DNA of 64,000 nucleotides from Octopus sinensis. Taxonomy: Eukaryota. Both the position numbers and the translations under genes were made by a program. This document shows positions 15,853 through 50,073 of this stretch, piece after piece (the first letter of the stretch is position 1; each line of letters starts with the position of its first letter). The stretch spans positions 54,498,001-54,562,000 of the forward strand of contig NC_043000.1 of NCBI RefSeq assembly GCF_006345805.1. The letters run 5' to 3'. The notes under the pieces are model-generated. The model searched no databases. It saw nothing but the letters and a program-made list of their open reading frames with translations, and was not told the DNA's origin.

Positions 15853-16036
15853 TAATATTAGGGAGTATATCCAACTTACAGGAAAAAATTAGATTTAGGA
15901 TTAAATCAAATTTCACGGTATTTTATATTTTTAATATATATATTGCATATTATATTGATTATATTTATATTTTGTTTTTTATGTTTTGATATATGTCTAT
16001 CACTGTTTGAGTTGCCTAATAGTGGTTTTATCTCTA

Positions 16037-16040
<4 letters not shown>
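15852..16040 (-). mobile_element. Fragment of PLE-pLTR-like family E within (TA)n
   Basis: AATATTAGGGAGTATATCCAACTTACAGGAAAAAATTAGATTTAGGATTAAATC is the reverse complement of the tail at about 47055-47110. Confidence 0.65.
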
Positions 16041-19124: not shown

Positions 19125-19863
19125 AATTAGGGTTCAGCCAAAAAATTCACTTTACCACACACCGAAATTTTAGAAATAGCAGCCAAAGAATTTAGCTATT
19201 TCCTCTACTATAAGAAGAGTCTCCCAGACAATGTATATTCAAAAACAATTCACGTAGGCATAGAGGGAAAAATAACGAAAGATCACTTGTACATCGATTA
19301 CATGAGAACGCCGTTTCTGGGTTAGTTAGATATAGAGATTCTAGAAATACATACCTATATCAACATTCCTGGCATCAGCCCAAGATTTCGTTCAGTTTAA
19401 ATTTGAGAGCACTAAAAATCGAACATACCTGTCTGATTTGAGTAATCCCAGACGAAACCCCTTCGACCATTAGTACTAACGAATTCAAAACGTGAGAATG
19501 AGGCTTTGCATCCTTCCCCGTCCACCCACGTGAGTTATAGAGCAACAATTACCTACAGAGAGATCTGTAGTTTATTATCAGGGATGGCATTATATTGTCA
19601 ATAATAATAAGGGTAAAATTAATTAATTATTAATTAATAATTTTACCAAGCAGTGTTCAGTATGTAAAAAGACCATTTACGGTATGTTTAAAACATTACT
19701 TTATATAATTAGGGTTCAGCAAAAAAATTTACTTTACCACACACCGAACTTTGTGTGGTAAAGTATTTTTTTTGCTGAACCCTAATTATATAAAGTAATC
19801 TTTTAAACATACCGTAAATGGTCTTTTTACATACTGAACACAGCTTGGTAAAATTATTAATTA
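19125..19863. mobile_element. PLE-pLTR-like family G: partial direct repeat plus terminal fold-back palindrome
   Basis: ATTAGGGTTCAGC..ACTTTACCACACACCGAA occurs at about 19126 and 19708. Arms 19631-19742 and 19753-19863 are inverted. Homologous to 46307-46462 and 49795-50073. Confidence 0.75.
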
Positions 19864-19865
19864 CT

Positions 19866-22800
19866 ATATTTATATTTACTAATCTTGTCAAATTCTTTCG
19901 CCGCTATATTGTGATCACAAGGGATACTCATGTCAATTAATAAAGACATGTTTTTGTCTGATCTTTTATAATAATATCCGGTTTATTAGCTTTTATAGTC
20001 TTGTCGGTCTGTACGGGAAAGTTCCATAGAATCGGCACATTTTCTCCCTCAGTCACAGCTTCAAGATGTCGTTTATACCATTTGTCAGCGGTTTTGGTTT
20101 TATAATACCGACATATTGTCCTATGTAAATACTGGCCGACTCTGTCATGTCTTGCTTTATATTCTGCAGGTGCTAAGGCTCTACACCCTGGGATTAGGTG
20201 GTCAATTGTTTCAATCTCATCGTTACAGAATCGGCATTTTGGGTCAGCTCCATTTTTTATCACATTGGTTAGGTAGTTCCGGGTTAATAAGCTTTGGTCT
20301 TGAGCAGCTAATATGAAACCTTCACTCTCTGCTTTTAGCCCTGAGCTTCGTAACCATTGGTGCGTGTGTTTCTGGTCGACGTCAGCTTGTTTGCTACAGG
20401 CTACATACTTGCCATGGAGAGGTTTCTGTTCCCATCTGCTAGCTAAATTTCATGTGCTTTTGTCTTTGCAATTAACTTCATTTTTTTTTTGCAGCTGCAG
20501 TTGGCGCATCTCCTTCAGCCTGATCAATCTGGTGGGTAGCTAAGAGATCAGCAGCGAATTTTTTGCTCTCTTTCAGTTTTTTAGGTCTTTCATGTTTTTT
20601 AACAAGTTTTAGCATCCAATCGTTGGAAAACTTCACTCTATTCTGAAAGAGAGCAAAAAATTCGCTGCTGATCTCTTAGCTACCCACCAGATTGATCAGG
20701 CTGAAGGAGATGCGCCAACTGCAGCTGCAAAAAAAATGAAATTAATTGCAAAGACAAAAGCACATGAAAATTTAGCTAGCAGATGGGAACAGAAACCTCT
20801 CCATGGCAAGTATGTGGCCTGTAGCAAACAAGCTGATGTCGACCAGAAACACACGCACCAATGGTTACGAAGCTCAGGGCTAAAAGCAGAGAGTGAAGGT
20901 TTCATATTTAGCCAGTCCGATTGTGGTGGTTTTGTATGTAAGTTCAAGCTGGATCAAACCTCGACCTCCCTGAGCTCTGGGAAGGTAAAGGCGATCCACG
21001 TCTGCCTTTGGATGGTGCATCTTATTACAAGTCAGTAGCTTGCGGATTTTTCTGTCAATTTTCATTATTTCACTGGTATTCCAGTTAACCACATTGAAGC
21101 TATAAAGAACAACTGGTACTGCTAAGGAATTTATGACTAACACCTTATTATATGCATTCAGCTCAGACTTCAGGACTGCTCGAACTCTTCTATAACATTC
21201 CTTCCTAACCTTCTCTTTCATGCTTGCATGCTTGTTACGAGAGTCTTGATTTATTACTGTTTCGAAATCTAATTCGATTGAACTAGACTTTACCAATTTC
21301 CCTTTCTTAAAAGTGGCTTTGGCACACTTTTCAAGGCCAAACTCCATACCGATATAATCACTGAATCCTTTCACGGTATGTAATAATCCTTCAAGCTCTT
21401 CATCATTTTTGCCATATAGCTTTAAATCATCCATATAAAATAGATGGCTTATTTTCCTGTTGTCAATTTTGTAGCCATATCATGTACTATTCAGTTCATT
21501 TGAGAGTGGTATTAGTGCTATGCAAAAAATTAGTGGTGAAAGTGAGTCACCTTGGAAAATGCCACAGTTTATGCTAATGTTGTTTGAGCGCAATACCCCA
21601 TTAGAATGATATAATTGGAGCTTCGTGTTCCATAGTGACATATTATAATTTAAAAAATCTGAAATCACAGGAGAAATTTTGAAAATGTCCAGCGATTTCA
21701 GAATCCACGAATGCGGTATGCTGTCAAATTCTTTTTTTATAATCAATCCATGAAGAGCTGAGATATCTGCGCTTGTTATTGCAGTTCTCAAGGATCATGC
21801 GATTAATTAGGAGCTGATATTTGCATCCGTACGAGCCTCGTCTGCATCCTTTTTGTTCAGTGAGAAAGAGGTTATTCTCTTCCATAAATGTATGTTTTCT
21901 CTACTAGAATAGAAGTCAAAAAATCTTATAGGTGGTAGATAAACATGTTATAGGCCGGTAGTTTTTTGGGTCTTTCGTTTTGTTATTTTTGGGGAGGAGG
22001 TAAGTAATACCATTTGCCATCCAATGAGGTGTTTTTTCCTGGTCTTTCATAATACTATTAAATAGTATTACTAACATTTTGTGTGCAGACCAGAGTGATG
22101 AAAGCCAGAAATTTGGTACTCTATCAATACCAGGGGATTTCCACTTATGGGCCTTCGTTAGTGTCCTCCTTAAGTCGGTGATCGAGATGTCTTCCCATAC
22201 CTTTTCTTGTAGATTTTTGTAGGTATCTTGGGTGCGTTTGATCCAGTCTGCATTTTCATTGTACGGTTTCTCATCACTCCAGATCCCCTTCCAAAACTTT
22301 TCAACTTCTTCCATTAGGAGTGGATTTTCAATGGTTATTTTTTCTTTCCCTATTTCCCTGTAAAATGATTTGACATTATATTTGAACAACTTATTTTGTT
22401 TGTAGAATTTGTTTAAGTGTTTCTTTCGCTGACATTAGTTTTTCTCTTGTTGAGTGTCCATATTTTCTCACAATCTTGCTGCCTTTTCTTGATCTTACAT
22501 CATTTCCAGAGATTAGCTCAGTTAATATTGATATCTCCCTTCGCAATGATTCAATTTCAGTTTCAATTCTACTCCTCCAGTTTGATTTTCGTTTCGAATT
22601 TGGTATTGTTGACTTTTTGGGTGTTAAACAGTGTCTTTCGATTACCTTAGCGACAGAGTAAATAATTACATTTAATTCATTAAGATCGGGTTTTAGTTGG
22701 TGTATGATTTCTTGTGTAACGCAGTTGCCAATTTTTATTTGTGTTTTATGTTGGTGTGCATTTGAGAGTTTATGGAGTGGTTCCCTATCATTCATAGTTG

Positions 22801-45597: not shown

Positions 45598-45819
45598 ATG
45601 AGAGGGGTGCCGAAAAGTTCATGGCTTTGGTTAAAAGAAAATGCAAGAAGATCGGATGATTATGATTTTATTCAACATATTCCTCGTTCAAATTCACACA
45701 CTTATTGCAGCAATCCTGAAAGATTTTTAAAGTCCTGTAAAAGAACTCGGAAGTTTAGGCCTCCAGTTAGACCATTCGCGACGCCTTTACAACCATGGAC
45801 ATTTCAGCACCACATAGTA
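45598..45819. mobile_element. Mariner-derived MITE
   Basis: Degenerate TIRs GAGGGGTGCCGAAAAGTTCATGG / CCATGGACATTTCAGCACCACATAGTA. Confidence 0.65.
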
Positions 45820-46277
45820 TGTACACCATAAATATTATATTGACAGACATCTCTACAATTTGAATACTACTCTCGGACTATTTTTACCAATGAGAAATTA
45901 TACAAGATCAAGATGACTGGTGGTTTTATATTAGTTAAATTCAAGACTTTATAGCCAAAGGAGTTTTTTGTTTTCCATAAAACAGGCGGATGTACTGAGT
46001 AGTCAGTTCCTTTCACTTAGTTGTATTATTGTGTGCTCGGTCACGATTATTTCTGTCCTCCTATATTAAGATCATATGTATCGTTTTGACTGTTCTTGTC
46101 CCAACAATTTTCACTGTGGATTAGCTTTTAATGCTATGAGAGCACACGCAAGCAGTCTTTGTAAGACTAGTACTTATTCTATCGGTTTCTTTTGCCGAAC
46201 CGTTAAGTTACGGGGACGTAAATACACCAACGTCGGTTGTCAAGCTATGGTGGGGGACAAACACAGATACACAGACA

Positions 46278-46306
<29 letters not shown>

Positions 46307-46314
<8 letters not shown>

Positions 46315-46462
46315 AAAGGGCTTAGTAAAATAAATTACTTTGCCGCATACTTATTTTACTAAGCCCTTTTATATAATGTAATAATTTGAATTTGCCTAAA
46401 TGGTCCCTTTGCATACTGAATACTTGGTGAAATTGATTAATTAATTAATTAATTTTACCCTC
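46307..46462 (-). mobile_element. Family G fragment with a short fold-back (27-bp arms)
   Basis: ATTATATAAAAGGGCTTAGTAAAATAA, a 17-nt spacer, then its reverse complement. The terminus GGGTAAAATTAATTAATT is shared with about 19611 and 49799. Confidence 0.7.
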
Positions 46463-46597
46463 AATTGTTGAAATTATATATATATATATATAATATATAA
46501 TATATATAAAATATTATTCGAGACAAAACCACTATTTTGCAAAACAACAAGGAAAGACTTAATCAATACATAAATTTTAATAAATAGTCAAAAAACG

Positions 46598-46638
46598 CCA
46601 CTACAATCGTTTCTTGCTTGATCGACATCTTCAGGTGG
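46598..46638 (-). ncRNA. Type I hammerhead motif (left arm; core intact, helix II weakened)
   Basis: CCAC-CUGAAGA-UGUCGAUCAAGCAA-GAAAC-GAUU-GUA-GUGG. Confidence 0.65.
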
Positions 46639-46899
46639 ACTTCCAATAATTCAGTGTCAAATATCCTGTAAAAGAACTCGGAAGTTTAGGCCTCCAGTTA
46701 GACCATTCGCGACGCCTTTACAACCATGGACATTTCAGCACCACATAGTATGTACACCATAAATATTATATTGACAGACATCTCTACAATTTGAATACTA
46801 CTCTCGGACTATTTTTACCAATGAGAAATTATACAAGATCAAGATGACTGGTGGTTTTATATTAGTAAATTCAAGACTTTGACACTGAATTATTGAAGT

Positions 46900-46942
46900 C
46901 CACCTGAAGATTGTCGATCAAGACAAGAAACGATTGTAGTGG
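46900..46942 (+). ncRNA. Intact type I hammerhead ribozyme (right arm)
   Basis: CCAC-CUGAAGA-UUGUC-GAUCAA-GACAA-GAAAC-GAUU-GUA-GUGG. Helices I and II are perfect, the core is complete and the site is GUA. Confidence 0.85.
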
Positions 46943-48334
46943 CGGTTTTTTTGACTATTATTAAAATTTTATGTATTGATTAGTGCTTTCCTTGTTGTTT
47001 TGCAAAATAGTGGTTTTGACTCGAATAATATTTTATAATATTTTACTATAAAATCGATTTAATCCTAAATCTGATTTTTCCCTGTAAATTTGGATTTATT
47101 CCCTAATATTTATTATTATATATATATATATATATATATAATATATTATATATATATTATGACGGACTTCTTTCAGTTTCCGTCTACCAAATCCACTCAC
47201 AAGGCTTTGGGCGGACCGAGATTATAGTAGAAGACACTTGCACAAGGCGCCACGTAGTGGGACTGAACCCAGAACTATATGGTTGGTGAACAAGCATCTT
47301 ACCACACAGCCACTTCCGCGCCTATACACACACAGACACACAGACACACACACACACACCTATATATATATATATTTATATACATATATGCATATAAAAA
47401 GGTACACACACAAGAACGCATGCAAAGCTTCGATGCTCAGTGTTAAGTTGGTTCTATTTCAGAAAAAAGATGATAATCTATCCTATACAGTATCTTTTAA
47501 AGAACTAAACGACCAAATATTCAAATTTCCTCTATATTTTAATTCCTCTTTCTATTTGGTAAAATCAACGTTTCAAGGAAATTCTAATCTGTGATATTAC
47601 ATGAATAGACAGTGATAATACGCTTCCTTCCGATATGTGATTACGAATATTGCAGTTTTTTTAATCTTTTCAACGGCATTGGATACATGGAATTAATTTT
47701 TCCAACTCACATGTCATTATCATCATCTGTGTTTTTCCTATATTTTCATGCCAATACAAAACCATGTAAAAGACTGATGATAACGTCGTTCTCTGTTAGT
47801 TAGTATGGTTTACCGAGCATTCAAGCTATCTGATGTTAAATCCAAGCTGAGGAATGTGATATAACTAATCTCAAATGAAATTATTCTAACAAAGACGCGT
47901 GCCTTAAAGCCAATTTTGTCAACTACCTTCGATTCACGTTGAAACCATTTTTAAATGTCTACATAACTTCTGATATCGGTACCCATACTTCATATTGGGG
48001 TGTTTGTTCGTTTGGTATCGTATATAGAAGAATGGCTAGTAACTTTTTGAAGGCACCTGCAACCACATTGTGTAGGTTTCTTGACTATTTTAGCAGAGAA
48101 CGGACGGAATGTGGGCCTTTAAAACCTAAGCTATTGCAATACCTTGTCCTCACCTTAGGTGGGGTGAACAAAATTTAGAAAAACTCAAAATTTGCAGGCG
48201 TTTCTATGTTATTAGAAAACTTTTTGGGCCTCTGACCACTGCACTATTACAAATATTTTAGTATAATGACATCGGGTTGTTTCATGCTCTGCTGTTAGTT
48301 TGATTCTATGTTGCGACTACAGCTGAGAGCAGTA

Positions 48335-49794: not shown

Positions 49795-49799
<5 letters not shown>

Positions 49800-50073
49800 G
49801 GTGAAATTAATTAATTTGGAATAATCATTAATTTCACCAAGTAGATTTCGGCATGTAAAAGCCCCATACAAGGAAGGTTTAAGTAATACTGAGTAATTAA
49901 GGGTTTAGCAACGATTTGCCTCACCACACACCGAATTTAGAAATAGCAGTCAAAGAGTTATGGCCATTCTTACTACTTTTAAGTAGAAAGAATAGCCATA
50001 ACTCTTTGACTGCTATTTCTAAATTCGGTGTGTGGTGAGGCAAATCGTTGCTAAACCCTTAATTACTCAGTAT
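49795..50073. mobile_element. Family G copy ending in a near-perfect palindrome
   Basis: Arms 49886-49978 and 49981-50073 with a 2-nt spacer, and (TA)n on both sides. Confidence 0.85.

What the first reader, a model, noticed from the sequence alone, without database searches (positions are those of the whole stretch)
45733..47115. Two outward-facing hammerhead arms enclose a 218-bp copy of neighbouring genomic DNA
Seen: the inverted arms of about 157 bp (46505-46661, 46878-47037) each contain a hammerhead. The spacer (46664-46880) is an almost exact direct copy of 45733-45950, about 930 bp upstream. The copied DNA spans the right end of a mariner MITE and its flank, so it is local sequence and not part of the element. 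The right junction shares TTT microhomology. The whole structure is nested in the internal (TA)n of a SINE. Inference: a template switch onto nearby chromosomal DNA or RNA occurred during PLE integration. This would be a way for PLEs to capture host DNA and form a TIR-like cassette whose transcript is a long hairpin with a self-cleaving site on either strand.
Basis: partly seen in the sequence, partly recalled or inferred. Interest (0 to 1): 0.75.

Follow-up and report, generated by a model that had tools for sequence, protein, structure and literature searches.

The report
Local DNA patch inside Penelope junction
A young, protein-free jumping-gene copy carries a 218-base copy of neighbouring DNA where its two mirror-image halves meet; a few percent of the family's copies carry such patches, likely repair filler laid down while the insertion was being sealed, a kind of scar already known from other retrotransposons.

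Summary
The anatomy is confirmed. The arms are the normal form of a young, non-coding Penelope-like family (1,196 exact arm matches) whose coding partner has Hydra-clade motifs: 155 of 159 pairs are one short and one tailed arm, head to head in (TA)n. The spacer is not family sequence; it occurs twice in the genome, here and 931 bp upstream. It is not a one-off: 3 of 114 pairs in an unselected sample hold unique host DNA (two local, one from another chromosome), a targeted search gave another local case, and all five host patches share 3-5 nt with an arm's inner end. Most likely an arm's cDNA end primed on nearby DNA before the two ends were joined. Not supported: a mobile TIR-like cassette (no second copy) or self-cleavage of the hairpin transcript (the antisense arm is made first and pairs with the ribozyme). 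No read spanning the junction was seen. Templated insertions are known for L1, capture between pLTRs for rotifer Penelope, and this scan noted single cases in other genomes and the two-arm form elsewhere in this one. New here: a rate, distances and junction signature within one young family.

The parts
45605..45822 (.). Old dispersed repeat with decayed inverted ends (MITE-like; superfamily not tested); its right part lies in the copied segment
   Evidence: 72-77% to 5 other fetched loci; weak inverted match of its ends
45733..45950 (+). Source of the patch; the original, ending 555 bp before the left arm
   Evidence: 217/218 identity; contigs of runs X1, X3 and X4 run on past the matched part
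46156..46276 (+). Left half of a SINE-like repeat
   Evidence: found with the right half in many loci
46309..46474 (.). A second, unrelated short-arm/long-arm repeat in the same (TA)n
   Evidence: self-inverted 46304-46374; relatives at 19598-19879 and 49798-49867
46475..46508 (.). (TA)n target, left part
46501..46662 (-). Short arm (family positions about 174 down to 8)
46598..46638 (-). Type I hammerhead motif, two 1-nt deletions in stem II
46664..46880 (+). Templated patch, direct copy of 45733-45950; last 3 nt (TTT) shared with the long arm; one extra A at 46663
46878..47119 (+). Long arm (family positions 9-253), with a tail of about 78 nt that the short arm lacks
46900..46942 (+). Type I hammerhead motif, intact core, predicted cut after 46938; identical to the commonest family variant
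   Evidence: 186 counts in overlapping loci
47106..47157 (.). (TA)n target, right part
47161..47326 (+). Right half of the SINE-like repeat

Best explanation
This is one insertion of a short non-coding Penelope-like element, two arms head to head in a TA microsatellite, with a 218-bp direct copy of nearby DNA in the seam that was likely synthesised while the insertion was being closed. Shown: the two-arm architecture, a variable seam, a coding partner with the same arm, and the patch and its source. Inferred steps: (1) the partner's GIY-YIG nuclease cuts both strands of (TA)n; (2) each 3' end primes reverse transcription on the same kind of RNA, one at the internal site (about 174), the other at the tail end (about 253); (3) normally the two cDNA ends anneal through their near-palindromic 5' sequence and are joined; (4) here the long arm's end (AAA-3' on the bottom strand) instead paired with TTT at 45948-45950 on the top strand, plausibly exposed by resection of the left end, was extended 218 nt, came off, and was joined to the short arm with one untemplated base. 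The template was probably DNA. The polymerase is open: host end-joining polymerase about 55%, the element's RT about 45% (my estimate). The product is a dead scar, not a new mobile unit.
For: 155 of 159 distinct pairs are one short plus one tailed arm (tandem duplicates with different errors can count twice). Arms within a pair share diagnostic alleles (discordant 0 of 81, 1 of 97, 3 of 141; random pairing predicts 40, 35, 70), yet either arm can be the more truncated (34 versus 19), so one arm is not simply a fold-back copy of the other. Seams differ from copy to copy. Coding partner: an 859-aa open frame with RT motifs and a C-terminal nuclease region next to a 96% identical arm (L210), and an 88% arm directly upstream of the ORF in L211. 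The patch occurs only here and at the source. Other host patches: L179 (about 247 bp, ending 582 bp before the left arm), L166 (55 bp from the left flank plus 26 bp from the right), L184 (91 bp, 32 bp right of the element), L031 (547+64 bp from contig C28). All 5 of 5, this one included, share 3-5 nt with one arm's inner end; chance per junction 0.034, 0.009 and 0.015 for the three with their own null. The copy has no substitution against the source while runs X3 and X4 differ at 6 places each, so the copy is young, like the insertion. PAc protein cuts and extends both strands and starts at two internal sites in vitro (PMC11167929).
Against: No contig bridging either junction was listed in six runs; in X1 one 447-nt contig passes the fork point unbroken (contigs cannot show absence). 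This copy's arms are among the most indel-rich (4.3 and 2.5 gaps per 100 nt against a median of 1.2), so the local consensus is weak. L166 has each arm joined to a piece of its own-side flank, which the simple 'resected opposite end' geometry does not explain; duplex or sister-chromatid invasion would be needed. No empty or unfilled allele was seen, so timing at integration is inferred. This locus and L184 came from selected searches, and five events are few.
Confidence: 0.68

Rival explanations
1. An ordinary two-arm insertion came first; its palindromic centre broke later and host repair filled it with local DNA.
For: Ordinary copies are near-perfect palindromes of 150 bp or more per arm; fragility of palindromes and templated filler at repaired breaks are general knowledge (recalled; polymerase theta papers seen as a search listing only). 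Microhomology fits equally.
Against: Both arms still reach family positions 8 and 9, within the range of ordinary seams (101 of 155 pairs have both arms complete to position 20 or less). Other seams hold pieces of related element sequence (L058/L059, L265), which points to synthesis while element RNA or cDNA was present.
Confidence: 0.16
2. The element's reverse transcriptase jumped from its own RNA onto a nascent host transcript of the locus, so the patch is a cDNA.
For: Patches from related element sequence and from another chromosome (L031, with a second piece from about 40 bp upstream of the first) look like template jumps. PAc RT starts without homology (PMC11167929).
Against: No spliced junction or poly(A) in any patch. 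The two pieces in L166 would need transcripts of both strands if each arm primed its own piece. No RNA data were available.
Confidence: 0.1
3. The structure is a long-read chimera or consensus artefact.
For: High indel load in the arms; no bridging contig listed. Polishing with reads from the source could have raised the spacer's identity.
Against: The element has the family's proper short/long architecture; four other loci show the same kind of patch with microhomology; a contig of an independent sample, X2, is 214 nt long and stops exactly at 46880, where source and cassette fork (a weak hint, since an allele there would do the same).
Confidence: 0.06

Closest known systems
EN+ Penelope-like insertions with an inverted 5'-truncated copy and a one-sided tail; Hydra clade (Craig et al. 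2021, PMC8557442; passages and section 11 read)
   Same: Inverted arms, tail on one side, (TA)n target, canonical hammerhead; partner ORF has WK (in RIKWK), DKT, CxCx5C and a C-terminal nuclease region without CCHH.
   Different: Tail here is about 78 nt against 30-40; the element is non-coding and about 250 nt; host DNA in the seam is not mentioned in the passages read.
Adineta vaga Penelope elements capturing host DNA (Arkhipova et al. 2013, PMC3846280; parts 1-3 of 5 read)
   Same: Unrelated host sequence between pLTRs; 5' junction by microhomology.
   Different: There the captured gene lies between direct pLTRs and was moved to a new place; here the patch lies between head-to-head 5' ends, comes from the target's own flank and has not moved.
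Templated insertions and twin priming of human L1 (bioRxiv 10.1101/2024.08.27.596794; PMC11702581; passages read)
   Same: Both DNA ends prime cDNA; cDNA ends join by microhomology; 22 templated insertions, typically under 250 bp, copied from nearby DNA.
   Different: L1 templates lie typically within 15 bp of the site; here 32-580 bp away, on either flank, or on another chromosome. L1 twin priming copies mostly non-overlapping parts of the RNA; here both arms copy the same 5' part.
Dual hammerheads on opposite strands in truncated PLEs (Cervera and de la Pena 2014, PMC4209133; part 1 of 4 read)
   Same: Pairs of type I hammerheads 100-700 bp apart on opposite strands; short stem III with palindromic loop.
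   Different: The sequence between them was not described in the part read.
PAc (Poseidon, Anolis) in vitro (Frangieh et al. 2024, PMC11167929; parts 1-2 of 4 read)
   Same: Both strands cut and extended; two RT start sites define the tail; uncleaved RNA is the template.
   Different: Other clade; joining of the two cDNAs and filler were not examined in the parts read.

Membership tests
EN+ Penelope-like element (non-autonomous derivative) | pLTR shared with an RT + GIY-YIG coding element | tested here: met
   L210 859-aa and L211 762-aa open frames beside 96% and 88% arms. RT and nuclease motifs were read by eye; Pfam gives no significant hit.
EN+ Penelope-like element (non-autonomous derivative) | Inverted 5'-truncated copy and tail on one side | tested here: met
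   155 of 159 pairs
EN+ Penelope-like element (non-autonomous derivative) | Target-site duplication | tested here: inconclusive
   Hidden in (TA)n; no empty allele seen
Hydra clade (partner) | RWK, DKT, CxCx5C linker, CxxC/CxH, no CCHH, (TA)n target, canonical HHR | tested here: met
   RIKWK (not exactly RWK), DKT, CTCRDKSNC, CYLC in L210; CRH in L038; criteria from PMC8557442 section 11
Hydra clade (partner) | Placement in an RT tree | not tested
   No reference set fetched
Type I hammerhead ribozyme | Core CUGANGA / GAAA / NUH with stems I-III | tested here: met
   Right arm intact, -5.4 kcal/mol for the imposed fold; stem III loop self-dimer -7.8. Left arm's stem II damaged. The free fold is not the hammerhead.
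Type I hammerhead ribozyme | Self-cleavage | not testable with these tools
   Needs an assay
MITE / TIR cassette | Symmetric TIRs and several copies with the same interior | tested here: not met
   Arms asymmetric; interior occurs only here and at its source
Non-LTR retrozyme | Tandem direct units each with a hammerhead | tested here: not met
   This copy is an inverted pair; tandems seen elsewhere repeat the whole pair (L005, L028)
Templated insertion at a retrotransposon junction | Insert copied from DNA near the target, with microhomology | tested here: met
Templated insertion at a retrotransposon junction | Formed in the same event as the insertion | not testable with these tools
   Needs alleles or de novo events

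The most novel reading that the evidence does not exclude
The seam of two-ended Penelope integration is a routine capture point: the element's own enzyme jumps from its cDNA end onto flanking DNA, other chromosomes or sister RNAs in about 1 of 40 events, and the filled units can be remobilised, which would be the origin of the host genes found between Penelope repeats and of new fold-back elements.
Probability: 0.1. Interest if true: 0.72.

Novelty: new member of a known kind. Interest (0 to 1): 0.4.

Why it matters
How Penelope-like elements form their inverted structures is called undefined in PMC8557442. Local DNA in the seam means the seam was open at the target site, which favours two cDNAs primed from both ends of one break over an inverted unit made beforehand. 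With hundreds of young, 250-nt copies, this family lets the rate, distance, orientation and microhomology of such patches be counted in one genome. It also gives a small, steady source of local duplications (about 18 genome-wide by extrapolation, range about 4-51). The single locus is a scar with no sign of function.

Tried and rejected
Rfam: no hammerhead match in the window at E up to 1 or in 46480-47120 at E up to 10. Free folding of the hammerhead stretch gives no unusual stability (z -0.6 to +1.1). Sequencing runs: no RNA holder listed; no bridging contig listed in X1, X2, X3, X4, X5 or X7; these are contigs, so this is not evidence of absence. No empty-site test was possible, as both lays were used on the cassette. 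Pattern for complete subfamily-A arms 30-60 nt apart: 0 matches. Longer seams could not be searched in one pattern, so the rate rests on a sample. Widely spaced pairs on C1: 7 of 8 were longer family members, not captures. L145, L068, L100-L103, L157, L172, L174 seams are family-derived; L171, L178, L214, L264, L274 seams are microsatellite-like and were not counted. L055/L181 sits in a tandem array where deletion and duplication cannot be told apart; not counted. L263 (46 nt, no match within 1.5 kb or in the family) was not traced. Fold-back of one arm as the general mechanism rejected (either arm can be the shorter). Pfam on the partner ORFs gave nothing significant. Paper searches listed no study counting host patches in Penelope seams; the library lacks most subscription journals, and no supplements were read (those of the L1 preprint, which hold the template sizes, are closed).

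Full report
Observation. The arms, the spacer and its source are as described. The arms align at 93.2% over 162 columns, nearly all differences being small indels; the spacer matches 45733-45950 at 217 of 218 columns. Both arms hold a type I hammerhead motif facing outwards, the only two hits of my scan in the window; the left one has two deletions in stem II. Rfam misses both. The right arm continues for about 78 nt that the left lacks. The unit sits in the internal microsatellite of a SINE-like repeat, beside a second two-armed repeat.

The family. The hammerhead core has 3,262 exact matches in the 2.7-Gb genome; the two short subfamilies have 493 and 703 exact arm matches. Of 159 distinct head-to-head pairs in fetched loci, 155 are one arm ending near position 174 and one ending near 253 (tandem duplicates may count twice). 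Seams vary from copy to copy, mostly small overlaps or a few extra bases around a near-palindromic 5' end. The two arms of a pair share diagnostic alleles (discordant 0 of 81, 1 of 97, 3 of 141, against 40, 35, 70 expected), yet the long arm is the more truncated in 34 pairs and the short arm in 19. That fits two cDNAs made from one RNA species and joined on the spot, not one arm copied from the other. Longer members carry an ORF; L210 has an 859-aa open frame and L211 has the arm directly upstream of the ORF. The motifs, read by eye, fit the Hydra clade as defined in PMC8557442 section 11; Pfam gives no significant hit and no tree was built.

The patch. The non-repeat part of the spacer occurs at two places only, here and at the source, so it is neither family sequence nor a cassette that has moved. 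The source is the original: it continues the old repeat and its flank, and contigs of three runs run on beyond it. Runs X3 and X4 differ from the window at 6 places each in this stretch while copy and source show no substitution, so the copy is recent, with the caveat that polishing could have evened them out.

How common. The first 100 listed matches of each subfamily (200 of 1,196; C1, C2 and part of C3) make 136 elements: 114 pairs and 22 single arms. Fifty-nine pairs were judged from coordinates alone (0-34 nt between motifs); the other 77 elements were read. Three of 114 pairs hold 35 nt or more of unique host DNA: L166 (55 bp from the left flank, 2 extra nt, 26 bp from the right flank), L088/L179 (about 247 bp ending 582 bp before the left arm, later or artefactually doubled as a 940-bp tandem) and L031 (547 + 64 bp from contig C28, 98-100% identical). 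That is 2.6%, 95% interval 0.5-7.5%. Two more hold TA-like filler and three hold longer family sequence; these were not counted. Searches aimed at odd junctions added L184 (91 bp from just right of the element), L054/L200 (about 280 bp of the adjacent flank, inverted, with a third arm), L058/L059 and L265 (pieces of the long relative) and L263 (46 nt, source unknown).

Junction signature. All five host patches share 3-5 nt with the inner end of one arm: TTT here, ATAA in L179, CTT in L166, TTTGA in L184 and TTTG in L031; the other arm junction shares 3 nt in L184 and none in the other four. Chance values from local sequence are 0.034, 0.009 and 0.015 for the first three. All four local patches between two arms are in direct orientation. 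This locus, L179 and L184 fit an arm end pairing with the exposed strand of the opposite DNA end; L166 does not and needs invasion of a duplex.

Mechanism. Best reading (0.68): both ends of a cut in (TA)n primed reverse transcription, as PAc does in vitro (PMC11167929); the long arm's end paired with TTT 555 bp away, copied 218 nt, and was joined to the short arm. The cut, the priming and the timing are inferred. Rivals: later repair of the palindrome centre (0.16), RT jump onto a host transcript (0.10), artefact (0.06).

Is it real? Not proven. No bridging contig was listed in six runs, X1 passes the fork unbroken, and these arms are error-rich (4.3 and 2.5 gaps per 100 nt; median 1.2). Against an artefact: the proper architecture, the parallel cases, and an X2 contig that ends exactly at the fork.

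The hairpin idea. Either strand would fold into a long hairpin (-257 and -271 kcal/mol), but the antisense arm is transcribed first in both directions; in the nascent + transcript the ribozyme stems have predicted probability 0.0. Self-cleavage from this cassette is unlikely; no RNA data were on hand.

What is known. Inverted copies, tails and (TA)n targets: PMC8557442. Opposite-strand hammerhead pairs: PMC4209133. Host DNA between pLTRs: PMC3846280. Templated insertions at L1 sites: bioRxiv 10.1101/2024.08.27.596794 and PMC11702581. This scan noted single seam patches in other genomes and the two-arm form in this genome; those notes are leads, not support. The verdict is a new member of a known kind; its value lies in the family-level counts.

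Noticed in passing
window 46309-46474; relatives 19598-19879, 49798-49867: A second, unrelated repeat with a short arm and a long arm head to head sits in the same (TA)n; probably another Penelope-type family.
   Followed up: partly
window 15854-16038: An older, diverged relative of the arm and tail (74-87%), without the hammerhead part, between TA runs.
   Followed up: no
L100 2040-2070; G000 listing: The 5' end of the short family occurs 775 times, often repeated every 0.8-1.2 kb inside the long elements' non-coding part; short copies usually start at or just inside this fixed point, which follows a UUC triplet. What fixes that end (promoter or a second ribozyme) is unexplained.
   Followed up: no
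L054 649-1744 (G000:C7:67312332): Three-armed insertion with an inverted copy of about 280 bp of the adjacent flank; the two short arms differ at a diagnostic site, so the middle arm was not copied from the left one.
   Followed up: partly
L145 2017-3175: Four tandem 267-bp units that extend about 120 nt past the usual tail into the ORF start, suggesting a third start site and repeated copying.
   Followed up: partly
L005, L028, L096, L100-L103, L183: Whole two-arm units repeated in tandem with their TA flanks; unequal exchange or assembly, not tested.
   Followed up: no
L210 2988-5564, L211 3098-5383: The partner ORF has an asparagine-rich stretch between RT and nuclease, recalling the N-rich inserts of Adineta Penelope ORFs (PMC3846280).
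   Followed up: no
L058 and L059 (G000:C12458, 38 kb apart): Two copies of one element whose seam holds about 155 nt of the long relative; the flanks look shared, so probably a segmental duplication rather than remobilisation.
   Followed up: partly
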